A stretch of 64,000 bases of DNA from the sequence record PZ338877.1; one strand, given 5' to 3'. The notes under the pieces are model-generated. The model ran no database searches. It was not told the DNA's origin and saw nothing but the letters and a program-made list of their open reading frames with translations. Origin of the DNA: a phage. Both the position numbers and the translations under genes were made by a program. Shown here one piece after another: positions 2,570 to 60,299 of this stretch. How positions within the stretch are numbered: the first letter of the stretch is position 1; the number at the start of each line of letters is the position of its first letter.

Positions 2570-2804
2570 TGTTCACCTCTGCCATGAAATTCTGTAGCGT
2601 TCCAACAGGTTTTAGGTTTTGACCGTCAGTTTTCATGATGAATGGCATCTGACGAACTGGCATCTGTGCAATATCCATCAGGTCTGACAGTTCATAATCC
2701 TGCCCTAACATTCTCACAACATGGTCAATACCACGAGCTTTCGCAAAATTCTTTGCAGTCTCACACTGAGGGCATCCAGTTTTGGAGTAAATTACATAAG
2801 TCAT
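2562..2804 (-). CDS. nrdH: glutaredoxin-like redoxin (NrdH-type) for RNR
   Basis: 80 aa, CPQC redox motif near N-terminus, located immediately upstream of nrdB/nrdA. Confidence 0.7.
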   Translation of the reverse strand: MTYVIYSKTGCPQCETAKNFAKARGIDHVVRMLGQDYELSDLMDIAQMPVRQMPFIMKTDGQNLKPVGTLQNFMAEVNNA

Positions 2805-42813: not shown

Positions 42814-43920
42814 TCAGCCACCTTTAGCGTCAGCACGAACATCTACCAGCAACTGAGGACGAGTACAGTATGGCAGCATGTAAGAGTGAGCTTCGAAGTC
42901 AATACCTTCGTCACGGTCTTTTTCGTATTCGAATACGTACAGTTCCTGACCAAGTGTATTTGCATAACCCATCTTAGGACATGGGCCATATGCCACTTCG
43001 AAGATGTTGTTTGCTTCACCCAGCATAGAAACGTTAGGGAAAGCATGGCCTACACCAACAGTTGCTGCTACGCTATCAATGCTCACCAGAGTGTGAACCT
43101 TACCACGCTTGTCTTTGAACTTACCGTTGTACTGGACAAACTTAACACCACCGTAGTAGAAAGTGTTCATATGAGCCTGAACGCCGTCAGTACCACCAGT
43201 TCTCAGAGAACCAGTAATCTGTTGCCAAGCCAGTGGAGTCTGCTGTGCAAGATAAGCGTCACGAATCTTAGGATGCTTAACCAGTTTGCTGAAGAATACA
43301 CGGTCAACAACTACGTGAATTTCTTCACCGTTGATTACAGTGCCAGTCTTCGCTTCGTCTTCCATGTGCATACGCAGTTCTTCAATAGATGCGTCGATGT
43401 CAGCATTAGGGTTGTCAAGGTCGAAGTAAACAGTCTTCTTCTCAACGTCGAACTGCTTGTACAGGTCAGCATACAGCGTACCACGAGCATCAACAACTTT
43501 ACCCTTCAGAGCTTGCATAAATAGGAACTCACGAGTAATATCGAACTTGGTACGAATCTTCATCAGCTTCTTAGCACGTACTACAGCTTCAGTAGTCAGT
43601 TCGTTTGCAGTGCCTGGCTGACGTACACCCTGAATTTCATCAGGAGTGATGCTTTCAACTTCTTTGAAGTACATCATTGGGAAGCTGATTTGACGAACAC
43701 GCTCAGGTGCGCTAGTCTCTGCTTTACGGCTATCACGGTCTACCGCATCAAGCAAGCTAACATCCCAATCAGTCAAGTCCATAAGGAAAGTAGTTTGGGT
43801 GATTGGTGCTGAACGGAACAGACCTAAGTTGGAAATATACCCATAAGTATTTGGGATAGACTGGACTTCACCAGTCAGGTCAGCAAGGAAAAATCTGCTT
43901 TTTTCAGAATTAGTCAACAT
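42814..43920 (-). CDS. major capsid protein
   Basis: 368 aa, downstream of protease/scaffold and decoration-like gene. Confidence 0.7.
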   Translation of the reverse strand: MLTNSEKSRFFLADLTGEVQSIPNTYGYISNLGLFRSAPITQTTFLMDLTDWDVSLLDAVDRDSRKAETSAPERVRQISFPMMYFKEVESITPDEIQGVRQPGTANELTTEAVVRAKKLMKIRTKFDITREFLFMQALKGKVVDARGTLYADLYKQFDVEKKTVYFDLDNPNADIDASIEELRMHMEDEAKTGTVINGEEIHVVVDRVFFSKLVKHPKIRDAYLAQQTPLAWQQITGSLRTGGTDGVQAHMNTFYYGGVKFVQYNGKFKDKRGKVHTLVSIDSVAATVGVGHAFPNVSMLGEANNIFEVAYGPCPKMGYANTLGQELYVFEYEKDRDEGIDFEAHSYMLPYCTRPQLLVDVRADAKGG

Positions 43921-48015: not shown

Positions 48016-49632
48016 TCAACGTCTAAGCCCCTCATATGGGTTTCCTCTCACTAAGTCTGTGTGAGCACCCATTGATGGTGGCTTGAATAATTTAACTTCG
48101 TTAAGACTGTTGAAAGCATCACTGGTAGCATCCACTTGGTCATCTTTAGTTTTACCGTCACCACAAAAACCTTCAAGTTCTTGAAAGTAAGCTTCGTTCC
48201 AACTGCCTCTCAAGACTTTTACAAGTCCAGCTTCAGAAGCAGCAGAAAATCCCGCAAAGCGGGTAACTTTATCTTTATTTGTTGGTTTAGCTCTTGCGCG
48301 ATAACCTTTCTCGGCAAGTTTCCTGATGAGGGATGTTGCATAGGATTTACCAGCAGCGCCTGGGTCTTGAGGGATAAAAATACCAGTTCGCTTACCGTCA
48401 CTTTCAGCAGTCAAATTAATTTGTGTTTCGACTCCAGAGGGTCTATCTCTAAATCTTACTACATCAATGATATAATAGCAACCGTCTTTTTTAGATTTAC
48501 CCATCTTAACACCCGCTGTCCAGTCTGGGTTAGGGTTAATTTCAGATGGTAAAGTTGCTGCTAAGTCCCATGCTCTGACATCAAACACATCTTCTGGGAG
48601 TGAATCAACAATCTCACACCATTGTCTTTGCCAATAGTTTGAACCTTCTGCACGAGCCTTCCAGTTACCGAAACGAAGTCTTGCAACGTTTACAGGTGTG
48701 TTGTTTTCCAACTTACCACGATACTTAGGCTCTAAGAAGTCAAGAATTGGGTTATCATCAATCGTACCAGAGATGAAGGTGTATGTCTGAGGAATCTCAA
48801 GAGGGAACATTTCAAGAATCTTGTCTCTCTCCCAATCAGAAACCATCACACCATCATTCATAACATACCAACGAATACGACCACATTTCTCAGGGTCTGG
48901 GTAACCTTCTTCATCTAAGAATGGCTCTACCCAATCATAAATGAAGTGGTCTCTATCTGGGTTCATAGAAATCTTCATGTATGAATCGCCTTCAGCACCA
49001 GAACGTAGACGGGTCTGTAGGTATGAAATCTGTGAAGCAGAAAAGTGCGTACCTTCGTCAAAGTAGATAGCTGAGTACTCAATACCCTGATGACCTTCAG
49101 CGTGCTTTTCAAGTTCTAGGTAGGTAAACTTAATAGTTGCCCCAGAAGGGAACGTGATAGTCATCTTCTGCTCGTGAGGAACCCCACCAAACTTACCAAA
49201 TAGTTTCTTTGCAGCAGGCCATAAACCACCTTGTAACTGTGTTGTATTTCGACGGAAATATACAGCGTTATAGTTAGGGTCTTCAATAAACCTTAAAGAG
49301 TCCATTAACAATGCAGCAGTCTTACCAGCACCAGCAGCACCACCATATAGAACCAAGTCAGCATTAGTATTTAAAAAGACCTCTTGAGAACCCGGCTGAG
49401 GGGCTACATAGTTCTTATCAGTCATCAATTTGAAGATAAGTCTAACTTGGTCTGGTGTGTATCTTAATAAAGTCAGAATTTGAGTTGGAAGGAATTTAGA
49501 GGGGTCTTTACCGAATGATTTGATAATTTCTTTTACTTCATCAGAAAGCCCCAACTCTCCAGCTAGGACTTTCCTAACATCTTCCACTCGCTTCTGCTTA
49601 ACAGCATTTAAGTCCATTAAGCACCTCCGCAA
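48016..49632 (-). CDS. terminase large subunit
   Basis: 538 aa; Walker A LYGGAAGAGKTAAL; C-terminal nuclease-like region. Confidence 0.85.
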   Translation of the reverse strand: MRRCLMDLNAVKQKRVEDVRKVLAGELGLSDEVKEIIKSFGKDPSKFLPTQILTLLRYTPDQVRLIFKLMTDKNYVAPQPGSQEVFLNTNADLVLYGGAAGAGKTAALLMDSLRFIEDPNYNAVYFRRNTTQLQGGLWPAAKKLFGKFGGVPHEQKMTITFPSGATIKFTYLELEKHAEGHQGIEYSAIYFDEGTHFSASQISYLQTRLRSGAEGDSYMKISMNPDRDHFIYDWVEPFLDEEGYPDPEKCGRIRWYVMNDGVMVSDWERDKILEMFPLEIPQTYTFISGTIDDNPILDFLEPKYRGKLENNTPVNVARLRFGNWKARAEGSNYWQRQWCEIVDSLPEDVFDVRAWDLAATLPSEINPNPDWTAGVKMGKSKKDGCYYIIDVVRFRDRPSGVETQINLTAESDGKRTGIFIPQDPGAAGKSYATSLIRKLAEKGYRARAKPTNKDKVTRFAGFSAASEAGLVKVLRGSWNEAYFQELEGFCGDGKTKDDQVDATSDAFNSLNEVKLFKPPSMGAHTDLVRGNPYEGLRR

Positions 49633-50061: not shown

Positions 50062-50137
50062 TGGAGAATCCGAAGGGACTCGAACCCTTATAAACCTGTT
50101 TTGCAGACAGGCACATATCCATTTCTGTCACGGATTC
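50062..50137 (-). tRNA. tRNA-Cys (anticodon GCA)
   Basis: minus-strand cloverleaf: T-arm AAGGG-ACTCGAA-CCCTT, anticodon arm CCTGT-TTTGCAG-ACAGG, acceptor CGGATTC, CCA encoded. Confidence 0.8.
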
Positions 50138-50141
50138 AAAT

Positions 50142-50234
50142 TGGAGGAAGATACCAGACTTGAACTGGTACACCGATTTCTCAGCTACTGGCAGTTTAGC
50201 AAACTGCTCCCTTACCTTTTAGGGTTAATCTTCC
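50142..50234 (-). tRNA. tRNA-Ser (anticodon GCU), class II
   Basis: T-arm ACCAG-ACTTGAA-CTGGT, anticodon arm GCAGT-TTAGCAA-ACTGC, 21-nt variable arm, 7-bp acceptor, CCA encoded. Confidence 0.75.
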
Positions 50235-50235
50235 A

Positions 50236-51033
50236 TTATTTCTGTAATGCGTTCTTCATTTCTGGTGTTGCAATAGTGTCAATCACACCAGTTTTACAAG
50301 CATCATCAAACCAGTCTGGTAAGATACCTGCTAAGAACCCATTGATATTCGTTTTAAGGTACTCTGCAATAAGGGCAGCTTCTTCTTCAATCATCTGCAC
50401 AACTTCATCTGCATAAGCTGTAATCTTCGAGATACCTTCATTAATCTTACTAACAGCTTGATTAGCTAAATCAGAAATAGTATCAAGACCTTTATCAATA
50501 GCATCCTGTAAGTCGCTTAATACACCATTAACGCCATCTAGTGTGCTGTTAATTGTATCCATAGCTTTTTGACCATACTCTGTAGCAACACCCATAATAC
50601 CACTAAATGGTGTACAACCAACTTGCTCTCCTGCTGCACCCATAACATTGGAGTAGCCTTTTGCTACCTGCATACGTGAGGAAAACTCATCAATAGATTT
50701 TTGACCATAATCTGTCAATGTTTTAGTAGTTGCTGTAGTGCTTGTCAGACTCGTTGTAAAGCTATTAAGCAGAACTGTTGTAAGTCCAGCAGCAATGAGC
50801 TTATCCTTCATTGTAGGGTCTGTTACAGAGCTAATAGAGCTTACAAGTGATGTAGAGGCAGCTACGGTTCCACCTAGAACTGCTGCACCAGTAATAAGGG
50901 GATTAGAAAACCCTCTACCGGTTTTTAAGAGATTAAAAATCTCCTTACCTTGTTCTGTCATCTCTTTCATTAAGCACCTTTGAAATTGGTAGTCCAGTGG
51001 GATTTGAACCCTCTTCTCATGTTTTTCAGACAC
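50236..51033 (-). CDS. hypothetical Ser/Thr/Ala-rich protein embedded in tRNA array
   Basis: 265 aa ORF between tRNA-Ser and tRNA-Phe. Confidence 0.45.
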   Translation of the reverse strand: MSEKHEKRVQIPLDYQFQRCLMKEMTEQGKEIFNLLKTGRGFSNPLITGAAVLGGTVAASTSLVSSISSVTDPTMKDKLIAAGLTTVLLNSFTTSLTSTTATTKTLTDYGQKSIDEFSSRMQVAKGYSNVMGAAGEQVGCTPFSGIMGVATEYGQKAMDTINSTLDGVNGVLSDLQDAIDKGLDTISDLANQAVSKINEGISKITAYADEVVQMIEEEAALIAEYLKTNINGFLAGILPDWFDDACKTGVIDTIATPEMKNALQK

Positions 51034-51063
51034 GCGCTTTAACCATATAAGCTACTTGGACTA
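50987..51063 (-). tRNA. tRNA-Phe (anticodon GAA)
   Basis: T-arm GTGGG-ATTTGAA-CCCTC, anticodon arm CATGT-TTTTCAG-ACACG; ends approximate. Confidence 0.65.
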
Positions 51064-51068
51064 TAAAT

Positions 51069-51144
51069 TGGGGTGACCTACGGGATTTGAACCCGTATAG
51101 ACCATGTTCACAGCATGGGTCATTACCATTTATGATAAGGCCAC
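51069..51144 (-). tRNA. tRNA-His (anticodon GUG)
   Basis: T-arm ACGGG-ATTTGAA-CCCGT, anticodon arm CCATG-TTCACAG-CATGG, D-stem TCAT/ATGA, CCA encoded. Confidence 0.8.
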
Positions 51145-51175
51145 ATTTAAGGACTCTCGTAAGAATCCTTAGAAG

Positions 51176-51251
51176 TGGCAGCGGCATAAGGATTTGAACC
51201 TTAATAAGACAGCTTCAGAGACTGCTGCATTGCCAGTTATGCTATACCGCT
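51176..51251 (-). tRNA. tRNA-Gln (anticodon CUG)
   Basis: T-arm TAAGG-ATTTGAA-CCTTA, anticodon loop TTCAGAG (rc CTCTGAA), D-stem GCAT/ATGC, CCA encoded. Confidence 0.75.
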
Positions 51252-51256
51252 AAATT

Positions 51257-51335
51257 TGGTACTCCATATCGGATTCGAACCGATACATAACACAGATTTT
51301 AAGTCTGGCCTCTCTGCCAATTGGAGTAATGGAGC
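51257..51335 (-). tRNA. tRNA with Leu-type anticodon UAA, short variable region
   Basis: T-arm ATCGG-ATTCGAA-CCGAT, anticodon loop TTTTAAG (rc CTTAAAA), 7-bp acceptor; only 79 nt. Confidence 0.6.
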
Positions 51336-51337
51336 AT

Positions 51338-51413
51338 TGGCGGGGGATGTTGGAATTGAACCAACTTCTTCGATTTCAAAGACCGAGGTTTTAACCTTGT
51401 AAACTAATCCCCT
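51338..51413 (-). tRNA. tRNA-Gln (anticodon UUG)
   Basis: T-arm GTTGG-AATTGAA-CCAAC, anticodon arm TCGAT-TTCAAAG-ACCGA, D-stem GTTT/AAAC, CCA encoded. Confidence 0.75.
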
Positions 51414-51421
51414 TTAAATCT

Positions 51422-51979
51422 TTACTTTCTTAGTGGATGAATAAAGAATGCCAACATAACTCTTTCCCTTGAGAATGCTCTTTCTTCTGGGACAACACTT
51501 TTAAGTTTCCATCCAACATAAATTCTCCAGTAGAATTGTTTACCAAAGACTTTAATTGATGGGATAAAGGCGAATAATCCCCAAGCATTACTGTTCCACA
51601 TTAGGAGATAACCTGTCTGATTATCTTCAGGGTCAGAACTTACGTTGATATTACCTTTCCACTTAGTAACATCTTTTACATCTCTTCCTAACACATGGTA
51701 AGAGAAGTTATAAGCTTTGTTTCTCCAGAGCCATCCAACTCTCTGCAAATAGACACCCAGCTTACCAATCTTTCTAATCTTAGCCCATCTTTTAATGTGA
51801 CCTTCATCACCATCAATTGGGTTGTCATATGTCTCCATCCATCTGAATCCGAAAGGTAGATGTCCTTTCTTCTCACTATAGAATGGAACTACAAAAGGTG
51901 CTAAGATAACTGCTAAGGTTGCTGCCAATGGGTCTAACAAAGCTAGGAAAATCCATGAAGCATACTTCAAATATCTCAT
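51422..51979 (-). CDS. membrane protein embedded in tRNA array
   Basis: 185 aa; N-terminal hydrophobic helices (ASWIFLALLDPLAATLAVILAPFVVPF). Confidence 0.45.
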   Translation of the reverse strand: MRYLKYASWIFLALLDPLAATLAVILAPFVVPFYSEKKGHLPFGFRWMETYDNPIDGDEGHIKRWAKIRKIGKLGVYLQRVGWLWRNKAYNFSYHVLGRDVKDVTKWKGNINVSSDPEDNQTGYLLMWNSNAWGLFAFIPSIKVFGKQFYWRIYVGWKLKSVVPEERAFSRERVMLAFFIHPLRK

Positions 51980-51998
51980 CTAAATAGCCTCTTTAAAT

Positions 51999-52074
51999 TG
52001 GTGCAGGATAAGGGATTCGAACCCCTATTAACAGCTTCGTAGACTGCTGCTCTATCCATTTGAACTAATCCTGC
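51999..52074 (-). tRNA. tRNA-Arg (anticodon ACG)
   Basis: T-arm AAGGG-ATTCGAA-CCCCT, anticodon loop TTCGTAG (rc CTACGAA), acceptor GCAGGAT/ATCCTGC, CCA encoded. Confidence 0.8.
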
Positions 52075-52188
52075 TTACCTACAAGAACACCATACAGTTT
52101 TTCACAATCTTTGTTTTTACGTCTGTTTAGGTATGACGCTCTAAACTTTTTTGCTATTGACTTATCACTCATAGTGCTCTCCCAAAAT

Positions 52189-52266
52189 TGGTGTTCCAAG
52201 ACGGATTCGAACCGTCACTAGTACAAGGTTTGAGCTTGCATCCTCTGCCAATTGGGATATTGGAAC
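52189..52266 (-). tRNA. tRNA with Leu-type anticodon CAA, class I-like (78 nt)
   Basis: T-arm GACGG-ATTCGAA-CCGTC, anticodon arm ACAAG-GTTTGAG-CTTGC, perfect acceptor GTTCCAA/TTGGAAC, A73, CCA encoded. Confidence 0.65.
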
Positions 52267-52267
52267 A

Positions 52268-52342
52268 TGGTGCTCACTAAAGGACTTGAACCTTTTTCTT
52301 CATCTTGTAAGGGTGATGTTTTACCATATAAACTAAGCGAGT
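52268..52342 (-). tRNA. tRNA-Val (anticodon UAC)
   Basis: T-arm AAAGG-ACTTGAA-CCTTT, anticodon loop TTGTAAG (rc CTTACAA), D-stem GTTT/AAAC. Confidence 0.7.
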
Positions 52343-52437
52343 ATGAAAGAGGTCTGAAGTTGTGCCGCTCACTCAACTCCGTGGAATTTGTTACGGTCTT
52401 CAGTTGACACCAGCGGTCTTTCACTTGACCTCTGAAT
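52343..52437 (-). ncRNA. structured non-tRNA element inside tRNA array (candidate small RNA)
   Basis: 95 nt between tRNA-Val and tRNA-Thr; closing 7-bp helix AGAGGUC/GACCUCU plus internal inverted repeats; lacks T-loop consensus; contains a GGTCTTCAG motif copy. Confidence 0.3.
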
Positions 52438-52513
52438 TGGTGCTCCCACAAGGATTCGAACCCTGATAAGTTGCTTACAAGGCAACCGTAATAGCCAATT
52501 ATACGATAGGAGC
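52438..52513 (-). tRNA. tRNA-Thr (anticodon UGU)
   Basis: T-arm CAAGG-ATTCGAA-CCCTG, perfect anticodon stem GTTGC/GCAAC with loop TTACAAG. Confidence 0.8.
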
Positions 52514-52520
52514 ATTAATT

Positions 52521-52595
52521 TGGAGCATCCAGAGGGAATCGAACCCTCAACCTCAGTTTGGAAGACTGTAATTTTCCCGTTTAAACTATGGATGC
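52521..52595 (-). tRNA. tRNA-Gly (anticodon UCC)
   Basis: T-arm GAGGG-AATCGAA-CCCTC, anticodon loop TTGGAAG, perfect acceptor GCATCCA/TGGATGC. Confidence 0.8.
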
Positions 52596-52601
52596 ACTAA
52601 T

Positions 52602-52677
52602 TGGTGGAGTCACTGAGAATTGAACTCAGTTCCCAAGTTTGCAAAACTCGAATTTTAACCATATAAACTATGACCCC
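52602..52677 (-). tRNA. tRNA-Ala (anticodon UGC)
   Basis: T-arm CTGAG-AATTGAA-CTCAG, anticodon arm CAAGT-TTGCAAA-ACTCG. Confidence 0.7.
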
Positions 52678-52683
52678 AATGTT

Positions 52684-52759
52684 TGGTACAGGTGGAGGGA
52701 ATTGAACCCATCGTCTTACTGATTAAGAGTCAGCCGCATAACCATTTTGCTACACCTGC
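52684..52759 (-). tRNA. tRNA-Lys (anticodon CUU)
   Basis: anticodon stem CTGA/TCAG with loop TTAAGAG; acceptor ACAGGTG/CACCTGC; paralogous to tRNA at 53998-54073. Confidence 0.7.
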
Positions 52760-52766
52760 ATTGATT

Positions 52767-52844
52767 TGGTAGGAGACAAGGGATTCGAACCCTCAAACAC
52801 CAACTTCTAAGGATGGTAGGTTTACCAATTACCGTCAATCTCCC
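52767..52844 (-). tRNA. tRNA with Leu-type anticodon UAG, class I-like (78 nt)
   Basis: T-arm AAGGG-ATTCGAA-CCCTC, anticodon arm CCAAC-TTCTAAG-GATGG, A73, CCA encoded. Confidence 0.6.
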
Positions 52845-53097
52845 ATTAAATCTTTTTAGAGAACTTCTAAGAACCTAAGCAACAAGGTTCCACAACAAGC
52901 TGTAATAACCTTAGAAGCCCTCTAAAAAGACCTAAATATGTCTTTGCATAGTCTTGTTTAATCCGGTGACTAGAACCTTTGGAGAGCTTGATATTATCTC
53001 TTCTCCGTGACACCTACTAGGTGCTTTATCAGTGTGTACGACAATACACGAGGGATAAACCGAAAATGCGAGCAAGCATGACGGTGTAAATCTTATT

Positions 53098-53188
53098 AGG
53101 CGGTAAGTAAAGGAGTCGAACCCTCACCGTATCTCTACAGTGGCAACAGTTTTCAAGACTGTTTGGCTGCCATTAGCCGCTACCTACC
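53098..53188 (-). tRNA. tRNA-Ser (anticodon UGA), class II
   Basis: T-arm AAAGG-AGTCGAA-CCCTC, perfect anticodon stem ACAGT/ACTGT with loop TTTCAAG, long variable arm. Confidence 0.7.
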
Positions 53189-53201
53189 CCTAATAAGACT
53201 T

Positions 53202-53284
53202 TGGCATGGGACGGAGGAGTTGAACCCCTTTGAAACGGTTTTGGAGGCCGTTGCTCATGCCTTAGAGTCTTAACATCGTCCCAC
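53202..53284 (-). tRNA. atypical tRNA-Trp-like gene (anticodon core CCA, 9-nt anticodon loop)
   Basis: T-arm GGAGG-AGTTGAA-CCCCT, acceptor ATGGGAC/GTCCCAC, CCA encoded; anticodon stem AACGG/CCGTT encloses 9 nt (tRNA sense CCUCCAAAA); D region about 8 nt longer than canonical. Confidence 0.5.
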
Positions 53285-53426
53285 ACTATAATTCGAAGCT
53301 TACCGTATTTTCGCAACACTGTAAAGCCCCTTCTCAGATTATTTACATGTTCTGGAAAACATGAGATACAGACCACCTCCTTACACGGAGACCCGATAAG
53401 GTCGTCTAAGCAATCTGCTAACTATT

Positions 53427-53503
53427 TGGCACACCCTACAGGATTCGAACCTGTAACTAACGATTTAGAAGACCGTTGCTCTATCCAATTGAACTAAGGG
53501 TGC
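53427..53503 (-). tRNA. tRNA-Arg (anticodon UCU)
   Basis: T-arm ACAGG-ATTCGAA-CCTGT, anticodon arm ACGAT-TTAGAAG-ACCGT, D-stem GCTC/GAAC. Confidence 0.8.
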
Positions 53504-53839
53504 ATTAATCTTTAAAGACTCTCTTAGAAAGCCCTTAAAGATGCCCACCTTATTAATCATACCGTGGGCGAGTACGCCAAATTCTTTGATGAGGGATTGG
53601 AAGACCTCACTGGTGTTTAGCCTATCAAGCTACTGCCAGAAAAACATTGTCGTTTGCATTTATTTTAAATTTGCAAAATAGACGCTACGCAACGAAAACT
53701 ATTCAGAATATGTACAACAAATTTCCCCACATTGTGTTACGTCTAACGCTCATGTATTGGTGTTTGAATTATACATATTGTGAAGTATTTTAGTTACTAT
53801 AAAGTGGTCACATCTTAATGTCAACAACTTTATTGAAAT

Positions 53840-53915
53840 TGGTACTGGTAGGTGGAATCGAACCACCGATGTTCCCTTATCAGGGGAGTGTTATAACCTT
53901 CTTAACTATACCAGC
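53840..53915 (-). tRNA. tRNA-Ile (anticodon GAU)
   Basis: T-arm GGTGG-AATCGAA-CCACC, anticodon loop TTATCAG, acceptor ACTGGTA/TACCAGC. Confidence 0.8.
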
Positions 53916-53916
53916 T

Positions 53917-53993
53917 TGGAGGTTCAGATGGGAATCGAACCCACATTCATAGGGCTTATGAGACCCCTGCATTACCTTATCTGCGACTGAACC
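53917..53993 (-). tRNA. tRNA with CAU anticodon (Met/fMet; three G-C pairs in anticodon stem)
   Basis: T-arm ATGGG-AATCGAA-CCCAC, anticodon arm AGGGC-TTATGAG-ACCCC, perfect acceptor GGTTCAG/CTGAACC. Confidence 0.75.
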
Positions 53994-53997
53994 ATAT

Positions 53998-54073
53998 TGG
54001 TAGAAGTGGAGGGATTCGAACCCATCGCCTGTCAGATTAAAAGTCTGCCGCATCACCATTCTGCTACACTTCC
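53998..54073 (-). tRNA. tRNA-Lys (anticodon UUU)
   Basis: anticodon stem CAGA/TCTG with loop TTAAAAG; acceptor AGAAGTG/CACTTCC. Confidence 0.7.
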
Positions 54074-54275
54074 ATTAAATTACCTTTGCAGTAACCTACG
54101 CAGACCTTGCTAAAGGGTCTGTAGAGTCATTTCCTCTTAAGCTAATCTAGAATCATGCTAAGGAAATTCATCGGCACTCATGGGACGACATAATTAGCCA
54201 CATAAGCTACTGCAAAGATAATTACCAGACCGTTGTTTATCATCTTAAGTGCTACCATTACACCAACTCGACATC

Positions 54276-54321
54276 TGCCGAGTGAAGGAATCGAACCTTC
54301 GCCTTTTCTTTACCGGAGAAA
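54276..54321 (-). pseudogene. tRNA-like fragment (3' half only)
   Basis: intact T-arm GAAGG-AATCGAA-CCTTC and 3' acceptor strand plus a 5-7-5 hairpin, but no complementary 5' acceptor strand; anticodon loop has C at position 33. Confidence 0.35.
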
Positions 54322-54336
54322 TAGATTGTTTAAGTT

Positions 54337-54360
54337 TTGCTGTAAACGGTCTTCTGTAAA
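54337..54360. repeat. short repeat family copy (TTGCTGTAAACGGTCTTCTGTAAA)
   Basis: one of 4-5 copies of TTGCTG(Y)A(W)(W)(Y)GGTCTTCTG within tRNA array. Confidence 0.7.
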
Positions 54361-54423
54361 TTTGTTGAGCCAGACCAAGTTTTAAATTTTTCAAAATTAA
54401 ATTGGCTTGAAATTTTAAGTAAC

Positions 54424-54444
54424 TTGCTGTATTTGGTCTTCTGC
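54424..54444. repeat. short repeat family copy (TTGCTGTATTTGGTCTTCTGC)
   Basis: same motif family. Confidence 0.7.
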
Positions 54445-54530
54445 TCCTTTAAAGAATACTCGTAAGAACTCTTTAAGGGAGGGGCTAAATAGCCCTCTCA
54501 AAACATCATCTTGAAATACTTATTATAATT

Positions 54531-54608
54531 TGGCGGTTACGAAGGGATTTGAACCCTCATCATCTCCCGTGACAGGGGAGTATTTTAACCAGATTAAACT
54601 ACATAACC
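54531..54608 (-). tRNA. tRNA-Asp (anticodon GUC)
   Basis: T-arm AAGGG-ATTTGAA-CCCTC, perfect anticodon stem CTCCC/GGGAG with loop GTGACAG. Confidence 0.8.
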
Positions 54609-54614
54609 TTTATT

Positions 54615-54702
54615 TGGTGTGCCGTGTAGGAGTCGAACCTACCGAGTCTCAATGACAAGGGATTTACAGTCCCCACCGCTACCATCTACGGGATAACGAC
54701 AC
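54615..54702 (-). tRNA. tRNA-Tyr (anticodon GUA), class II
   Basis: T-arm GTAGG-AGTCGAA-CCTAC, anticodon arm AGGGA-TTTACAG-TCCCC, 15-nt variable arm. Confidence 0.75.
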
Positions 54703-54773
54703 ATTTTATTATTCTATTCAGGCTAAGGACTTGCACCTTACAAATCGGTGAGCAATCGCTTCTCTCCTAAATT

Positions 54774-54850
54774 TGGCGGTTAGTCAGGGATTCGAACCCT
54801 GTGCCATTCGCTTAACAGGCGACCGCACATACCTTATGTGCTTCCTAACC
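54774..54850 (-). tRNA. tRNA-Asn (anticodon GUU)
   Basis: T-arm CAGGG-ATTCGAA-CCCTG, anticodon loop TTAACAG, D-stem GCAC/GTGC. Confidence 0.7.
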
Positions 54851-54902
54851 TTAATACATTGCCAGACCGTGTTTTTTTCTTTTATCCGCAAAAAGTAGTT
54901 TG

Positions 54903-54927
54903 TTGCTGCATACGGTCTTCTGCAAAA
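54903..54927. repeat. short repeat family copy (TTGCTGCATACGGTCTTCTGCAAA)
   Basis: same motif family, immediately 3' of tRNA at 54929. Confidence 0.7.
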
Positions 54928-54928
54928 T

Positions 54929-55005
54929 TGGAGGCGGGTGCAGGAGTCGAACCTGCCGATACCATGCTAATGAGACATGTGAGACGCCCTTTCTCTATAC
55001 CCGCA
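54929..55005 (-). tRNA. tRNA with CAU anticodon (second copy; Met or Ile2-type)
   Basis: T-arm GCAGG-AGTCGAA-CCTGC, anticodon arm CATGC-TAATGAG-ACATG; 1:72 unpaired; U at position 37. Confidence 0.6.
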
Positions 55006-55069
55006 ATTCTTAATGACCAGACCAAATCTCTTCTTTGTCCGATTTACCTTCAGATGAATAAGATTAAGT

Positions 55070-55094
55070 TTGCTGTAATTGGTCTTCTGTCAAA
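55070..55094. repeat. short repeat family copy (TTGCTGTAATTGGTCTTCTGTCAAA)
   Basis: same motif family, immediately 3' of tRNA-Glu. Confidence 0.7.
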
Positions 55095-55096
55095 AC

Positions 55097-55174
55097 TGGC
55101 GTTCCAGAAGGGATTTGAACCCTCAAATATCCACTTTGAAAGAGTGGTGACTTTACCATTTTGTCTACTGGAAC
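55097..55174 (-). tRNA. tRNA-Glu (anticodon UUC)
   Basis: T-arm AAGGG-ATTTGAA-CCCTC, perfect anticodon stem CCACT/AGTGG with loop TTGAAAG, perfect acceptor. Confidence 0.8.
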
Positions 55175-55181
55175 ATTAATT

Positions 55182-55258
55182 TGGTCTCTGTTGGAGGACT
55201 TGAACCTCCGGCCTTACCGCCCCAAACGGAACGCTCTACCAAGCTGAGCTAAACAGAG
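55182..55258 (-). tRNA. tRNA-Pro (anticodon UGG)
   Basis: T-arm GGAGG-ACTTGAA-CCTCC, anticodon loop CCCCAAA, D-stem GCTC/GAGC, perfect acceptor. Confidence 0.8.
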
Positions 55259-55423: not shown

Positions 55424-56839
55424 TTACCAGATGTAACGGTCAATCATTACTGCTTTGAGCATTACGCTGATTGGGTCAAACTTCTCACCGCCAAGAAGAG
55501 CTTTTAAAGTGGCTGGAGAGAACCCTGATACCATTGCTACACCATTATCCTTAACAGATACTTCGCAAGTACCATTACGGTTTGCTAAGTACCAGAATAC
55601 TAGTTGCGGCATTTCGTATCCAGCTTTTTTGTACTTACTCTGAATTGCTTCAAAGTTTGTACGACCATTTGCACCATCAACCTGATTAAACTCCATATCA
55701 GAGAAGATAATGAGCTTACTTGGCATATCTTTCTGAGTCAAGTTGTTTCTCTTACCTACCTCAAGGATACGGTCAAAAGCTGCTTGTAAGTTAGTTGAGC
55801 CATATTCAACATGACGCATTACCTGACGGTGACGGTTTCGTAAATCACCACTCAGTTCAATGAAATGAGGGTTTGTTGAATAGACCATTAACTCATCTTT
55901 AAAGCAACCTGTATTGCGTTCTGCTACATACAAGGCAAGTGATACACCAATATCAAGGGCAGTAATTGAGCCAAGATTCACCCAAGACATTGAGCTTGAA
56001 ACATCAGTCATACATAAGATGTTTTCACCTTCTGCCATCCAGTTTGGTAGTGCTTTCCACTGCTCATTAGCGACATCAGCATTACCATACTTGATAGATT
56101 TAATCACATCGTATGGGTAAACAGCACCAGCGTTAATCTTGGCCTCACCTTTTGAGAGGGACTCGATGTAAGCTTTGTAACGTTCCCCATCTTTACGGCT
56201 AAAGAGCTTTTGGTAACGTGCAGCAGCGAGTGAAGGAATCTTGCTGTAGTCAATCTTACCAAACTCATTAGCAGAGATTTTTTGCTCAACCGTATCAGAT
56301 AGTGCAGATAACAGTGTGCGATACTCCTTCTCACTTAAGTTTGCAAACTTACAGAAACGTTTTACAAACTGTTTATGGCGTGGTTTTACTCGTGGCAACC
56401 ACTTAGCTGCTAAACCTGCTGTTGCAGGGTCTAGTAATGCTGATTCTAAATGTTTGAAGGCATCTGTCTCAAAACGAGTACCTACGAAGATTTTGAAGTC
56501 ATCAAAACGACCAAGTTCTGCAATCTTATCCATAATGCGAAGAACCTGTGTAGGTTCTAAAACTTTATCTTCAATTGCTTGAAGTAAAACAGTTCGGAAA
56601 GCTTTACGCTCACCCATACCTTCTCGTACATCTCGCATATGCAGTAAAATACGAACTGCAACATCAACATCCTCACGCAAAGCTTTGTAGAACAGGTCTG
56701 GTAAGATTTCTACATTGCTACGGCTTGAGCCAGCGGCTTTGTAAAAATCTACCAGAGCAGACATTGATGAAGTATGGTTTACAGCACCATTTTCAGTTCG
56801 ACCTGCATGAAGGTGCGCATGTTTAAATAACTCGCTCAT
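55424..56839 (-). CDS. vWA-domain protein with N-terminal helical domain (Ro60/TROVE-like or DUF2828-like, putative)
   Basis: 471 aa; C-terminal von Willebrand A fold with MIDAS-like DVSSSMS and later LIIFSDMEFN; N-terminal about 270-aa helical region; first gene upstream of tRNA array. Confidence 0.55.
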   Translation of the reverse strand: MSELFKHAHLHAGRTENGAVNHTSSMSALVDFYKAAGSSRSNVEILPDLFYKALREDVDVAVRILLHMRDVREGMGERKAFRTVLLQAIEDKVLEPTQVLRIMDKIAELGRFDDFKIFVGTRFETDAFKHLESALLDPATAGLAAKWLPRVKPRHKQFVKRFCKFANLSEKEYRTLLSALSDTVEQKISANEFGKIDYSKIPSLAAARYQKLFSRKDGERYKAYIESLSKGEAKINAGAVYPYDVIKSIKYGNADVANEQWKALPNWMAEGENILCMTDVSSSMSWVNLGSITALDIGVSLALYVAERNTGCFKDELMVYSTNPHFIELSGDLRNRHRQVMRHVEYGSTNLQAAFDRILEVGKRNNLTQKDMPSKLIIFSDMEFNQVDGANGRTNFEAIQSKYKKAGYEMPQLVFWYLANRNGTCEVSVKDNGVAMVSGFSPATLKALLGGEKFDPISVMLKAVMIDRYIW

Positions 56840-56919: not shown

Positions 56920-57291
56920 TTATTTTTTGAGAGTCGCTACAGCAGAGAACGTTGGTTTGTTATCTGTCTGTGGCTGACCACCATTATCAGTGGTCTTCTT
57001 AGTGTCTGCTGCAAGTGCTTTCATCTCACCTGCTGAGTGAGTAAAGATAGTTTTACCGACCTCAATCATGCTCTTGATGGTTACGTCATCTGTGTTTAAC
57101 CCGAACTCTGCAAGTTTGGCAGCGTCCCTTGTAACAATCGCCTCAAACAACTTTGCAGCAAACTCAGCAGAATTATCAATGGTCAGTTGAGCTTTTACGA
57201 GTGAGCTTTTGTTACGTGAACCTTTTGGTCTTCCAGATGGGTTACCAGACTGGCCTTTTTTAAACTGGCCTTTGTTTGTTCTGTTTTTCAT
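56920..57291 (-). CDS. hypothetical protein with basic N-terminal GNPSGRPKG (AT-hook-like) motif
   Basis: 123 aa; N-terminus KGQFKKGQSGNPSGRPKGSRNK. Confidence 0.45.
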   Translation of the reverse strand: MKNRTNKGQFKKGQSGNPSGRPKGSRNKSSLVKAQLTIDNSAEFAAKLFEAIVTRDAAKLAEFGLNTDDVTIKSMIEVGKTIFTHSAGEMKALAADTKKTTDNGGQPQTDNKPTFSAVATLKK

Positions 57292-57418: not shown

Positions 57419-57495
57419 CACCTTGTCAAGTACTTTGTCAACAACTTTTTTAGCTTGCAATAGTTCTTGACTTGTTGTATGGATTACTGTACCAT
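57419..57495 (+). promoter_or_regulatory. conserved motif CACCTTGTCAAGTACTTTGTCAAC followed by sigma70-like promoter
   Basis: motif near-identical to 15429-15452; downstream TTGACT (57467-57472) - 17 nt - TACCAT (57490-57495). Confidence 0.45.
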
Positions 57496-58501: not shown

Positions 58502-58548
58502 GTATAAACAGGGGCTAATGCCCCTTTATCTATTTATAAGGATATTTA

Positions 58549-58920
58549 ATGAAGGCTAAGAGTGCAAAAGACTTTTATTGCTTCCTACAATCCTATATCA
58601 ATTCCGTGGAGAAAGGTGATAGATATAATCTTAAAGATGTTATTGCATCACCTTTAACATGGAGACTTAGCAAATGGCCTGAAGAAGATATCACACCCAC
58701 TAGTAAACAACCTACCTACATCCCAGATATTAATCTCCCAGATTCAGATAAGTTATTGTACCCAATGTTCCACATTGTTGGGCTTGGTACATTTCTTATG
58801 GATATCCAGTATGTAATCGGTAAAGGTTATAAGGTTGAAGGTATCGTTGTTGGTGATGTGTCTCCACAACATAAAGGCTATTTTAGATTAAACGCACGTT
58901 TAGAGGCTAAAAAGAAATGA
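58549..58920 (+). CDS. hypothetical protein, paralog of N-terminal domain of downstream Ig-like protein
   Basis: 123 aa; shares motif (F)(L/F)MD(I/L)QYVI..GK with 58917-59801 product. Confidence 0.5.
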   Translation: MKAKSAKDFYCFLQSYINSVEKGDRYNLKDVIASPLTWRLSKWPEEDITPTSKQPTYIPDINLPDSDKLLYPMFHIVGLGTFLMDIQYVIGKGYKVEGIVVGDVSPQHKGYFRLNARLEAKKK

Positions 58921-59801
58921 TTAAAGCAAAGACTTACCCAGACTTCAAAGAATTTGTAAAGGGCTTCATTGCAAATGTAAAAGCTGGTAAGAGATATGAT
59001 TTTAGAACATATCAAGAAGCTATTTTACCACTCACCTATAGCTCATATTGGCCTGAAGCTGATATTGCAGAGGTTAAGAAGTTTGACTACAAACCAGACT
59101 ACAAAGTTCCTTTTAGTGATGAACTCCTTTACAGTGTTGGCGCACAGATGAGAACTGCTGATTTCTTCATGGATTTACAGTATGTAATCATCAACGGTAA
59201 AGATGTTGACACAATTTACTGTGAATGGTTGGCAAGAGTTAAGCCGTTCTCAATGCTGAATGCTAAGTTGAAAGATGCCATCACACCACCATCAATCACT
59301 CAGCAACCAACAAACCAAACAGTCAATGAAGGTGGAACGCTTACTCTAAGTGTTGTTGCATCTAATGCCACTGGTTATCAGTGGAAGAAAGATGGTGAGG
59401 ACATCTCCAGTGCCACTTCTGCAACTTACACAAAACAATCCGTAGCGCCTGCTGATGCTGGTTCATATACTTGTGTTGTATCTGGAGAGGGTGGGACAAG
59501 TGTCACCTCAGATGCAGCAACAGTGACTGTGAATGCCTTACCAGTTATCACTCAACAACCATCCAATCAAGAAATCACTGAAGGTGATACCTTAACACTG
59601 AGTGTTGTGGCAACAGGTGCAACAGGTTACCAGTGGAAGAAAGGTGAGGAAGTCATCCCAGACGCAACTGCTGCAACTTACACTAAAGAAGGTGCAACCG
59701 CTGCTGATGCAGGAAGCTACACCTGTGTAGTAACTGGCGCAGGTGGCTCTGTAACATCTAATGCAGCAACAGTTACAGTTAACCCAACAGGGGAGGCATA
59801 A
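58917..59801 (+). CDS. protein with two tandem immunoglobulin-like domains
   Basis: 294 aa; C-terminal half has two about 83-aa repeats (...TLTLSVVA..ATGYQWKK.GE.I..AT.ATYTK...A.AADAGSYTCVV.G.GG..TS.AATVTVN) with I-set-like W and C. Confidence 0.6.
   Translation: MIKAKTYPDFKEFVKGFIANVKAGKRYDFRTYQEAILPLTYSSYWPEADIAEVKKFDYKPDYKVPFSDELLYSVGAQMRTADFFMDLQYVIINGKDVDTIYCEWLARVKPFSMLNAKLKDAITPPSITQQPTNQTVNEGGTLTLSVVASNATGYQWKKDGEDISSATSATYTKQSVAPADAGSYTCVVSGEGGTSVTSDAATVTVNALPVITQQPSNQEITEGDTLTLSVVATGATGYQWKKGEEVIPDATAATYTKEGATAADAGSYTCVVTGAGGSVTSNAATVTVNPTGEA
59281..59780 (+). repeat. tandem ~250-bp intragenic repeat encoding Ig-like domains
   Basis: two near-identical DNA/protein units. Confidence 0.7.
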
Positions 59802-60265
59802 TGCAACTCTCAAGAAAAGGTTTAGAAGCCATTAAGTTCTTTGAAGGTCTGAAGTTAGAGGCTTACGAAGACTCTGCCGGAATCCCAACAATTGGGTATG
59901 GTACAATCCGTATTGACGGAAAACCTGTTAAGATGGGTATGAAAATTACTGCTGAACAGGCTGAACAGTATCTTCTTGCAGATGTTGAGAAGTTCGTTGC
60001 AGCAGTGAATAAAGCTATCAAGGTTCCAACTTCTCAGAACGAGTTCGATGCACTTGTAAGTGAAACATACAACATCGGTATCACAGCTATGCAGGATTCT
60101 ACATTTATCAAGCGCCACAATACTGGTAATAAGGTAGGTTGTGCAGAAGCTATGCAGTGGTGGAACAAGGTTACAGTCAAAGGTAAGAAGGTCACTTCAA
60201 ACGGCCTGAAAAACAGACGTAGAATGGAAGCTGACATTTATCTTGACAGTGTATATCCAAAGTAA
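59801..60265 (+). CDS. endolysin, GH24 lysozyme
   Basis: 154 aa; catalytic triad spacing E-x8-D-x5-T in FEGLKLEAYEDSAGIPTIGYG; no N-terminal TM. Confidence 0.8.
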   Translation: MQLSRKGLEAIKFFEGLKLEAYEDSAGIPTIGYGTIRIDGKPVKMGMKITAEQAEQYLLADVEKFVAAVNKAIKVPTSQNEFDALVSETYNIGITAMQDSTFIKRHNTGNKVGCAEAMQWWNKVTVKGKKVTSNGLKNRRRMEADIYLDSVYPK

Positions 60266-60274
60266 TATCTTCAT

Positions 60275-60299
60275 AGGCTCCTTCGGGAGCCTTTTTTAT
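60275..60299 (+). terminator. rho-independent terminator after endolysin
   Basis: stem AGGCTCC/GGAGCCT with TTCG loop followed by TTTTTT. Confidence 0.7.

What the first reader, a model, noticed from the sequence alone, without database searches (positions are those of the whole stretch)
58549..59801. Protein with two tandem Ig-like domains, paralogous to its upstream neighbour, next to the endolysin
The 58917-59801 product has an N-terminal domain homologous to the adjacent 58549-58920 product, and a C-terminal half of two about 83-aa tandem repeats with I-set immunoglobulin-like signatures (YQWKK...SYTCVV). Phage Ig-like domains are usually on virion surface proteins, but this gene lies in a non-structural plus-strand block just before the lysozyme gene. 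It may be an accessory decoration or adhesin, or lysis-associated.
Basis: partly seen in the sequence, partly recalled or inferred. Interest (0 to 1): 0.5.

Follow-up and report, generated by a model that had tools for sequence, protein, structure and literature searches.

The report
Felix O1-type capsid decoration protein and paralogue
The two-Ig-domain gene is the already solved "Hex-Dec" (Hoc-like) protein that plugs into capsid hexamers of Felix O1-like phages. The one less ordinary part is its conserved upstream neighbour, a copy of the capsid-binding domain alone, whose role nobody has described.

Summary
The window is a Felixounavirus genome. ORF 58917-59801 (294 aa) has an N-terminal domain 37% identical to ORF 58549-58920 (E 3e-17). 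It also has two tandem Ig domains that are 72% identical to each other (Pfam Ig_3 2e-23; AF2 pLDDT above 90).

It is not new. The protein is the orthologue of Bas63 Hex-Dec (PDB 9ncf_S, E 2e-245) and Sf14 gp20 (9c2d_S). In those phages a monomer sits in the centre of the 60 pentamer-proximal hexamers of the T=9 capsid and projects one to four Ig domains outward. Felix O1 ORF36, the same gene, was found in virions by mass spectrometry in 2010. Its position outside the structural module, next to the endolysin, is conserved across the Ounavirinae and was noted in the Bas63 paper. No evidence ties it to lysis.

The upstream 123-aa gene is a capsid-binding-domain-only paralogue:
- It keeps the fold (TM about 0.68 to both solved domains).
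- It is under purifying selection (dN/dS 0.07-0.29).
- It is translationally coupled to Hex-Dec and retained in distant lineages.
- It has lost the conserved capsid-contact Arg79.
- It is absent from the Felix O1 virion MS list and is not mentioned in either cryo-EM paper.
- It is deleted or fused in about 8% of relatives.

Its function is open.

The parts
58510..58525 (+). GC-rich hairpin (A GGGGC TAAT GCCCC T) followed by a T-rich stretch, 23 nt upstream of the paralogue start. It marks the upstream boundary of the three-gene unit.
   Evidence: Terminator-like site. The stem is invariant and the loop variable in Felix O1, Bas63, EF202P1, Sf14, Moogle and SUSP1. Its function (terminator, attenuator or RNA-stability element) was not tested.
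58538..58542 (+). Shine-Dalgarno sequence AAGGA of the paralogue gene
   Evidence: Read from the sequence. Conserved in all seven relatives compared.
58549..58920 (+). Paralogue gene encoding the capsid-binding domain alone (123 aa, pI 9.1). Equivalent to Felix O1 ORF37, bas63_0125, Sf14 gp21 and phrog_4463.
   Evidence: 37% identical to the Hex-Dec N-terminal domain. Matches 9ncf_S and 9c2d_S at 1e-11. The AF2 model (pLDDT 74) matches only those two chains in the PDB, TM 0.67-0.71. dN/dS is 0.07-0.29 overall and 0.00-0.11 in the C-terminal half.
58917..59282 (+). Hex-Dec capsid-binding domain (CapBD, aa 1-122). It includes Arg79 (59151-59153) and Arg107 (59235-59237), which in Sf14 gp20 form salt bridges to MCP Asp221.
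   Evidence: About 95% identical to Bas63 9ncf_S residues 1-122 and 87% to Sf14 9c2d_S. The model superposes with TMt 0.80. The contact residues are taken from PMC11821841, and both are conserved in the window protein (alignment).
59286..59537 (+). Ig-like domain 1 (aa 124-207)
   Evidence: Pfam Ig_3, I-set and Ig_2. pLDDT 91-97. Near-identical to Bas63 Ig1.
59538..59789 (+). Ig-like domain 2 (aa 208-291). It corresponds to the last (fourth) Ig domain of Bas63 Hex-Dec.
   Evidence: Pfam. In the alignment, window residues 208-292 match Bas63 375-458 with 6 differences. Also similar to the Ig domain of the T5 pb10 decoration protein (5lxk_A, 3.9e-12).
59801..60265 (+). Endolysin (GH24 phage lysozyme). 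It is the third gene of the unit, and its start overlaps the Hex-Dec stop (TAATG).
   Evidence: Pfam Phage_lysozyme 1.6e-40. Junction sequence. The synteny is conserved in Felixounavirus, Mooglevirus, Suspvirus, Kolesnikvirus and a metagenomic lineage.
60275..60292 (+). Intrinsic-terminator-like hairpin followed by TTTTTTATTTT, at the downstream boundary of the unit
   Evidence: 7-bp stem with 5 GC pairs, then a T run.

Best explanation
ORF 58917-59801 encodes the Felixounavirus hexamer decoration protein (Hex-Dec, also known as Sf14 gp20 and Felix O1 gp36).

Shown for orthologues by cryo-EM: the N-terminal roughly 120-residue capsid-binding domain inserts as a monomer into the centre of each of the 60 pentamer-proximal hexamers of the T=9 head. 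It is held by Arg79 and Arg107 salt bridges to the MCP Asp ring. The Ig domains project outward as a flexible, unresolved fibre.

Inferred here by homology: the window protein does the same with two acidic I-set Ig domains (pI about 4). The Ig fibre most likely gives weak, Hoc-like adherence to surfaces or glycans, or contacts the neck whiskers. It is non-essential.

The gene is expressed from a compact three-gene unit, paralogue then Hex-Dec then endolysin, with overlapping stop and start codons and a hairpin at each end. This explains why it lies outside the structural module.

ORF 58549-58920 is an ancient tandem duplicate of the capsid-binding domain only. It is a real, selected gene that keeps the fold but has replaced the conserved contact residues. 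My best guess (about 0.35) is that it still acts on MCP hexamer centres or on the Hex-Dec assembly step. It would do so as a weakly or transiently bound, Ig-less competitor or placeholder, not as a stable virion component. A role unrelated to the capsid is about equally likely.
For: Identity:
- phmmer against the PDB gives Bas63 'Immunoglobulin-like domain protein' 9ncf_S at E 1.9e-245 and Sf14 9c2d_S/9c3a at 5e-164, full length and collinear.
- The AF2 model's N-terminal domain superposes on both at TMt 0.80.
- Both papers describe the location, copy number and contacts.
- Arg79 and Arg107 are conserved in the window protein.
- Felix O1 ORF36 (294 aa, the same two-Ig architecture) is in the virion MS list.
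- The Ig number varies from one to four among relatives. The 249-bp length steps seen agree with that.
- Bas63 gp124 is dispensable.

Operon:
- Hairpins, Shine-Dalgarno sequences and codon overlaps.
- Conserved synteny, including in Erwinia Kolesnikvirus, which has a single CapBD+Big_2 gene followed by the endolysin.

Paralogue:
- Homology and fold.
- Purifying selection.
- Present next to Hex-Dec in about 92% of 253 phage records.
- Present in a metagenomic lineage whose copy is only 46-49% identical to the paralogue here and in known phages.
- Arg79 is replaced by an invariant Gly, and the K-P-[F/Y] motif shared by all display-bearing CapBDs is replaced by K-G-Y.
- It is basic, pI 9.1, so it could still be attracted to the acidic hexamer centre described for Sf14.
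Against: For Hex-Dec identity there is essentially nothing against. Only the physical presence of this particular phage's protein on its capsid is unverified. An adhesin function has not been shown for any member.

Against a capsid-related role for the paralogue:
- It is not in the Felix O1 virion MS list (ORF37 is absent).
- It is apparently not among the VpaE1 virion proteins, though that evidence is indirect.
- Neither cryo-EM study reports density at the 20 three-fold hexamers or mentions the gene.
- The 60 occupied sites were modelled as Hex-Dec.
- The contact Arg79 is lost.
- About 20 of 253 relatives have lost an intact copy while keeping Hex-Dec, so Hex-Dec production cannot depend on it.
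Confidence: 0.9

Rival explanations
1. The 294-aa protein is a tail protein or major tail subunit, as annotated in most GenBank records and in phrog_3995.
For: Annotations such as 'tail protein', 'HK97 major tail subunit' and 'major tail protein' appear in many records. phrog_3995 is labelled 'tail protein'. Ig domains also occur on major tail proteins (phrog_158 and phrog_853 hits through the Ig region only).
Against: Two independent cryo-EM structures place the orthologue in capsid hexamer centres (PMC12609058; PMC11821841). The Bas63 paper states explicitly that the 'tail protein' annotation is wrong. The tail-family hits cover only the Ig repeats.
Confidence: 0.02
2. The pair is lysis-associated, for example an endolysin accessory or a cell-wall or envelope-binding module acting with the adjacent lysozyme.
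For: There is tight linkage and stop/start overlap with the endolysin gene, conserved across the subfamily. Ig-like domains can bind carbohydrates.
Against: The orthologue is a structural capsid protein. There is no signal peptide, transmembrane segment or cell-wall-binding domain among the Pfam hits. Spanin and holin candidates lie elsewhere in Felix O1 and in the Erwinia phage MM7. Co-transcription of late genes is enough to explain the linkage.
Confidence: 0.03
3. The 123-aa paralogue is a stable second hexamer-centre decoration. It caps the 20 true three-fold hexamers that Hex-Dec does not occupy, so that two hexamer classes are served by two paralogous anchors.
For: There are two CapBD paralogues and two hexamer classes. 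The Sf14 authors attribute Hex-Dec's selectivity to Arg79 and Arg107 not reaching Asp221 in three-fold hexamers. The paralogue has changed the Arg79 position and the motif next to Arg107. It is basic, and its C-terminal lobe is nearly invariant. A 14-kDa protein present at 20 copies could be missed by stringent MS.
Against: Both papers report no density on the other hexamers. Even a three-fold-averaged monomer should leave a blob. ORF37 is not in the Felix O1 MS list, although 12-copy proteins were detected. The gene has been lost in about 8% of relatives.
Confidence: 0.15
4. The paralogue has taken on a new function unrelated to the capsid, such as a host-directed or regulatory small protein, and stays next to Hex-Dec only through genomic inertia.
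For: The conserved capsid-contact positions are lost. It has not been detected in virions. It sits in a block of small genes of unknown function downstream of sigma-70-like promoters. It is dispensable in nature.
Against: Adjacency, the ATGA overlap and the shared Shine-Dalgarno context with Hex-Dec are kept even in a lineage whose copy is only 46-49% identical to the paralogue here and in known phages. No record was seen with the gene relocated. The fold is retained. In one genome, the first 49 residues (roughly the first lobe) replace the matching part of Hex-Dec in an intact ORF.
Confidence: 0.35

Closest known systems
Bas63 (JohannRWettstein) Hex-Dec, bas63_0124, PDB 9ncf chain S
   Same: The capsid-binding domain is about 95% identical. 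The first and last Ig domains are near-identical. The gene order is the same (paralogue, Hex-Dec, endolysin), as is the position outside the structural module.
   Different: Bas63 has four Ig domains and the window protein has two. It lacks the counterparts of Bas63 Ig2 and Ig3.
Shigella phage Sf14 gp20 (Mooglevirus), PDB 9c2d/9c3a chain S
   Same: The capsid-binding domain is 87% identical, with Arg79 and Arg107 conserved. It is a monomer at the 60 pentamer-proximal hexamers and was detected by MS. Sf14 also encodes the paralogue (gp21).
   Different: Sf14 gp20 has three Ig domains, and their sequences are more diverged.
Felix O1 ORF36 / ORF37 / ORF35
   Same: The architecture and lengths are identical (294, 123 and 154 aa), and the DNA is 88.9% identical. 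ORF36 is a virion protein by MS.
   Different: ORF36 is annotated as a (major) tail protein, which is a misannotation.
[quoted passage not shown]
   Same: It works the same way. It is a non-essential monomer at hexamer centres with a small capsid-binding domain and a string of Ig-like domains projecting outward. PHROG 'Hoc-like head decoration' families are hit through the Ig region (discussion in PMC12609058).
   Different: The domain order is reversed (Hoc's capsid-binding domain is C-terminal). The capsid-binding domains have different topology and no detectable sequence similarity: the searches found only the two Ounavirinae chains. Hoc occupies all hexamers, and no CapBD-only paralogue is known to me.
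T5 pb10 decoration protein (PDB 5lxk, 8zvi)
   Same: [quoted passage not shown] Its Ig domain is significantly similar in sequence (3.9e-12).
   Different: It has one Ig domain, and its capsid-binding domain is not related by sequence (no hit outside the Ig region, and none).
Erwinia Kolesnikvirus (phiEa21-4 / MM7) gp008
   Same: It has a homologous CapBD (28% identical to the paralogue, with the Arg79 equivalent and the KPF motif kept). It lies directly upstream of the endolysin.
   Different: It displays one bacterial Big_2-type domain in place of I-set Ig domains. There is no CapBD-only paralogue.

Membership tests
Ounavirinae Hex-Dec / Sf14 gp20 hexamer-centre decoration protein | N-terminal capsid-binding domain homologous to the solved CapBD | tested here: met
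   phmmer E 1.9e-245 and 5e-164, collinear from residue 1. AF2 model against 9ncf_S and 9c2d_S gives TMt 0.80 at 95% and 87% identity.
Ounavirinae Hex-Dec / Sf14 gp20 hexamer-centre decoration protein | Capsid-contact arginines (Sf14 gp20 Arg79 and Arg107) | tested here: met
   Both are conserved in the window protein (QMR79T and LAR107V). The contacts are taken from PMC11821841.
Ounavirinae Hex-Dec / Sf14 gp20 hexamer-centre decoration protein | One to four C-terminal Ig-like domains | tested here: met
   Two domains. Pfam Ig_3, Ig_2 and I-set. pLDDT 91-97, with tandem-Ig structural matches.
Ounavirinae Hex-Dec / Sf14 gp20 hexamer-centre decoration protein | Gene outside the structural module, immediately upstream of the GH24 endolysin | tested here: met
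Ounavirinae Hex-Dec / Sf14 gp20 hexamer-centre decoration protein | Physically bound as a monomer in the centres of the 60 pentamer-proximal hexamers | not testable with these tools
   Shown for Bas63 and Sf14 by cryo-EM, and for Felix O1 gp36 by virion MS. Inferred here from 87-95% identity.
T4 Hoc family | Homologous capsid-binding domain, C-terminal to the Ig domains | tested here: not met
   The domain order is reversed. The CapBD sequence and fold searches returned only 9ncf_S and 9c2d_S. The PHROG Hoc-like hits cover residues 119-292 only. It is a functional analogue, not a member.
Pfam immunoglobulin superfamily (Ig_3 / I-set) | Score above the gathering threshold, and a beta-sandwich fold | tested here: met
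   Ig_3 83 bits (cutoff 30) and I-set 61 bits (cutoff 23.7). Fold. The canonical B-F disulfide is absent, with one Cys per domain.
Phage tail protein (database annotation, phrog_3995) | Location in the tail | tested here: not met
   Solved orthologues are capsid chains. The annotation is called incorrect in PMC12609058.
Hex-Dec CapBD family (applied to the 123-aa paralogue) | CapBD fold and sequence homology | tested here: met
   E 3e-17 to the window CapBD and 1e-11 to 9ncf_S. Foldseek probability 1.00, TM 0.67-0.71, with no other PDB match (the model has only pLDDT 74).
Hex-Dec CapBD family (applied to the 123-aa paralogue) | Conserved capsid-contact residues (Arg79; Arg107 with the K-P-[F/Y] motif) | tested here: not met
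   The Arg79 position is Gly in all paralogues. The Arg107 position is mostly Gln or His (Arg in a few). KP[FY] becomes KGY or YGY.
Hex-Dec CapBD family (applied to the 123-aa paralogue) | Displayed C-terminal domain | tested here: not met
   The ORF ends after the CapBD (EAKKK, then stop) in all lineages.
Hex-Dec CapBD family (applied to the 123-aa paralogue) | Presence in the virion | tested here: inconclusive
   Felix O1 ORF37 is absent from the published virion MS list. It is not mentioned in the cryo-EM papers. The raw MS data could not be searched here.

The most novel reading that the evidence does not exclude
The conserved 123-aa gene upstream of Hex-Dec is an Ig-less copy of the capsid anchor that acts on MCP hexamer centres. 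It would either cap the 20 three-fold hexamers that Hex-Dec leaves empty, or bind transiently or competitively to set how many Ig fibres a capsid carries. That would be a built-in regulator or partner of a decoration protein, which as far as I could find has not been described for Hoc-like systems.
Probability: 0.2. Interest if true: 0.5.

Novelty: already known. Interest (0 to 1): 0.25.

Why it matters
The main object is already explained. It corrects a widespread 'tail protein' misannotation, but it adds only another two-Ig member to a family solved in 2025.

The small residual value lies in the paralogue. It is a selected, translationally coupled, anchor-only copy that two structural studies did not discuss. 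If it does interact with hexamer centres, it would bear on two questions the cryo-EM papers left open: why Hex-Dec occupies only 60 of 80 hexamers, and what controls decoration density. It would also matter for using Hex-Dec as a phage-display scaffold, where an endogenous competitor for the site would be relevant.

Tried and rejected
1. Programmed -1 frameshift fusing the paralogue to Hex-Dec. The window has CT AAA AAG just before the ATGA overlap, and the Hex-Dec frame is open from 58911. The slippery run is not conserved in Sf14, Moogle (GCT AAG AAA TGA) or SUSP1, and no fusion product is reported. Rejected.

2. Internal duplication between the two lobes of the capsid-binding domain. BLASTP of the two halves finds nothing. 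The pseudo-C2 symmetry reported for Bas63 is not detectable in the sequence.

3. DNA-level tandem repeat. Tandem Repeats Finder finds none, because the Ig repeats are only 69.9% identical.

4. A late-promoter motif between the hairpin and the paralogue start. There are only 23 nt, and the sequence is not conserved between genera. Temporal class could not be assigned. The only sigma-70-like sites lie at 57435-57495 and downstream of 60196.

5. Proteomic evidence for the paralogue. VpaE1 Table S2 and the PhageMaP supplement are not held as text. The Sf14 supplement does not list gp21. The wV8 paper gives no relevant list.

6. Remote homologues of the capsid-binding domain. A profile search of 1.84 billion representatives found only 12 clusters, all of the same family. 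There is no link to Hoc, pb10 or any other known fold.
Full report
**What the window is.** The 2.4 kb around the finding is 93-98% identical to more than 200 Felix O1-like myophages of Salmonella, Escherichia and Shigella, genus Felixounavirus. GC content is about 39% throughout. The major capsid gene (42814-43920), protease, portal, large terminase (48016-49632) and sheath lie on the minus strand. They are followed by 26 tRNA genes at 50062-55258. The finding lies in the next plus-strand block.

**Checking the observation.**
- The 123-aa product of 58549-58920 aligns over its whole length with residues 2-119 of the 294-aa product of 58917-59801: 37% identity, E 3e-17.
- Residues 124-207 and 208-291 of the larger protein are 72% identical, E 9e-38. 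They are 69.9% identical as DNA, which is below what Tandem Repeats Finder detects.
- Pfam gives Ig_3 at 2.1e-23, Ig_2 at 1.2e-19 and I-set at 1e-16, each as two stretches.
- An AF2 model (mean pLDDT 85.6; 91-97 over the repeats) matches tandem Ig structures such as Robo, MALT1 and LAR at E about 1e-13 to 1e-14.
- Each repeat has one cysteine, so the classical Ig disulfide is missing.
- The next gene, 59801-60265, is a GH24 lysozyme (1.6e-40).

**What it is.** A sequence search of the PDB returns the 'Immunoglobulin-like domain protein' of phage JohannRWettstein (Bas63), chain 9ncf_S, at E 1.9e-245. It also returns the 'tail protein' chain 9c2d_S/9c3a of Shigella phage Sf14 at 5e-164. Both are collinear from residue 1. 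The modelled N-terminal domain superposes on both solved chains with TMt 0.80.

The Bas63 paper (PMC12609058) calls this protein Hex-Dec. [quoted passage not shown] Unresolved Ig-like domains follow: four in Bas63 and one to three in other felixounaviruses. The paper notes that the gene lies more than 10 kb outside the structural module and is usually misannotated as 'tail protein'.

The Sf14 paper (PMC11821841) describes the orthologue gp20 in the same way. It was detected by MS. It sits only on pentamer-proximal hexamers, and Arg79 and Arg107 bridge to Asp221 of three MCP subunits. Both arginines are present in the window protein.

Felix O1 has the same three genes with identical lengths: ORF37 (123 aa), ORF36 (294 aa) and ORF35 (endolysin). 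ORF36 was among the virion proteins identified in 2010 (PMC3185647). In a genome-wide knockout screen, Bas63 gp124 was dispensable but more important on E. coli S17-1.

The window's first Ig domain matches Bas63 Ig1 and its second matches Bas63 Ig4. So it lacks the internal repeats. Relatives differ by steps of about 249-252 bp.

**Why it sits next to the lysozyme.** The three genes form a compact unit.
- A GC hairpin at 58510-58525 is followed 23 nt later by the paralogue start, with an AAGGA Shine-Dalgarno sequence.
- The paralogue stop overlaps the Hex-Dec start (ATGA).
- The Hex-Dec stop overlaps the lysozyme start (TAATG).
- A strong terminator-like hairpin follows at 60275-60292.
- The hairpin stem, Shine-Dalgarno sequences and overlaps are conserved in Felix O1, Bas63, EF202P1, Sf14, Moogle and SUSP1.

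The Hex-Dec to endolysin linkage also holds in Erwinia Kolesnikvirus MM7, where the CapBD carries a single Big_2 domain. It holds in an uncultured 87-kb contig as well. This is old synteny, most simply co-expression. Nothing links the Ig protein to lysis.

**The upstream paralogue.** This is the only part not already described in the literature I could search. 'Paralog' occurs nowhere in either cryo-EM paper, and the gene is not in their tables.

It is a real gene.
- Orthologues 66-100% identical occur in Felixounavirus, Mooglevirus and Suspvirus.
- A copy 46-49% identical to these paralogues occurs next to a 298-aa Hex-Dec and a lysozyme in a metagenomic lineage.
- Pairwise dN/dS is 0.07-0.29 overall. 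It is 0.00-0.11 in the C-terminal half, comparable to the Hex-Dec CapBD at 0.02-0.06.
- An AF2 model (pLDDT 74) matches only 9c2d_S and 9ncf_S in the whole PDB, TM 0.67-0.71.
- The whole CapBD family is tiny: 12 clusters among 1.84 billion representative proteins.

It has also diverged at the positions that matter for capsid contact. Nearly all display-bearing CapBDs, including the distant Erwinia and metagenomic ones, keep the Arg79 equivalent, and all keep a K-P-[F/Y] motif next to Arg107. All paralogues have Gly at the first position and K-G-Y (or Y-G-Y) at the motif. The paralogue is basic (pI 9.1), compared with 7.7 for the CapBD and 4.1 for the Ig part.

Kolesnikviruses have no paralogue. 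The duplication therefore either postdates that split or was lost in that lineage.

**Natural variants.** About 20 of 253 phage records lack an intact copy.
- REP6, REP8, SP116 and Tf carry a deletion remnant without a start codon.
- Salmonella phage SP3_SHan-2021 has a single 292-aa ORF. Its first 49 residues are paralogue-type and the rest is Hex-Dec, with the crossover at the shared WPE(E/A)DI motif. This fusion is unique among the records.

So the paralogue is dispensable for viability and for keeping Hex-Dec. The two genes still recombine.

**How it most likely works.** For Hex-Dec the mechanism is shown in orthologues and inferred here. The CapBD plugs 60 hexamer centres, and two acidic Ig domains form a flexible outward fibre. 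By analogy with Hoc, the fibre most probably gives weak adherence or modulates virion interactions; that part is untested.

For the paralogue I can only rank readings:
- A weakly or transiently bound Ig-less competitor or placeholder acting on hexamer centres or on Hex-Dec assembly: about 0.35.
- A role unrelated to the capsid: about 0.35.
This one is disfavoured because both papers report no density there and Felix O1 MS did not find ORF37.
- Something else: the remainder.

**Comparison with known systems.** The window protein is a member of the Ounavirinae Hex-Dec family; every defining feature that could be tested was met. It works like T4 Hoc and T5 pb10, but it is not a Hoc family member. 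The domain order is reversed, and the capsid-binding domain shows no sequence or fold match outside the Ounavirinae. Its Ig domain does resemble that of pb10 (5lxk, 3.9e-12).

**Verdict.** However, the object is already solved and published, so interest is low. The anchor-only paralogue is a modest, cheaply testable loose end.

Noticed in passing
L002 (Salmonella phage SP3_SHan-2021, MW296865.1) 2501-3379: There is a single ORF in place of the two genes. Residues 1-49 are paralogue-type and the rest is Hex-Dec, with the crossover at the shared WPE(E/A)DI motif. It is a natural paralogue::Hex-Dec recombinant and is unique among the phage records.
   Followed up: partly
L003 (Escherichia phage REP6, OQ174505.1) about 2305-2498; also REP8, SP116 and Shigella phage Tf: The paralogue is reduced to a roughly 190-nt remnant with an internal deletion and no start codon, while Hex-Dec and the endolysin are intact. 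About 8% of relatives lack an intact copy.
   Followed up: partly
window 50062-55258, minus strand: An array of 26 tRNA genes lies between the terminase end of the structural module and the block that holds the finding.
   Followed up: no
window 55424-56839, minus strand: A 471-aa protein with DUF2828 and DUF7788 (annotated 'RNA-binding protein' in RefSeq relatives) lies directly beside the tRNA array. It is followed by a DUF5681 protein at 56920-57291.
   Followed up: no
window 59286-59789 (Ig repeats): Outside phages, the best solved relative of the Ig repeats is the grappling-hook protein GhpA of the bacterium Aureispira sp. CCB-QB1 (9flp_A, E 4.6e-59, 13 matching stretches). This Ig subtype is therefore shared with a bacterial surface filament.
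   Followed up: no
window 58549-60265 compared with L001 (EF202P1): Synonymous divergence changes sharply along the unit: dS is 0.30 in the paralogue, 0.56 in the Hex-Dec CapBD and 0.04 in the lysozyme. This suggests a recombination boundary near the Hex-Dec/endolysin junction.
   Followed up: no
P0057-P0061 and L006 (Erwinia phage MM7) 2301-2921: Distant CapBD homologues carry other display modules: a Big_2 domain in Erwinia, Hafnia and Cronobacter Kolesnikviruses, a Lys/Ser-rich tail in P0059, and a different Ig domain in P0061. The anchor appears to be a reusable display platform.
   Followed up: partly
P0053 (209 aa): This database Hex-Dec variant has an intact CapBD, but its reading frame is disrupted inside Ig1 and a nonsense tail follows. 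It is either a natural frameshift or a sequencing error.
   Followed up: no
phage records; VpaE1 Table S1: A record named 'Staphylococcus phage SA1' carries a 99% identical copy of the paralogue and groups with the felixounaviruses. The host label of that record looks wrong.
   Followed up: no
window 58907-58920: The dnaX-like shifty sequence CT AAA AAG lies 3 nt before the ATGA stop/start overlap. A -1 slip there would fuse the paralogue to Hex-Dec. The motif is not conserved in other genera, so this is probably incidental.
   Followed up: yes
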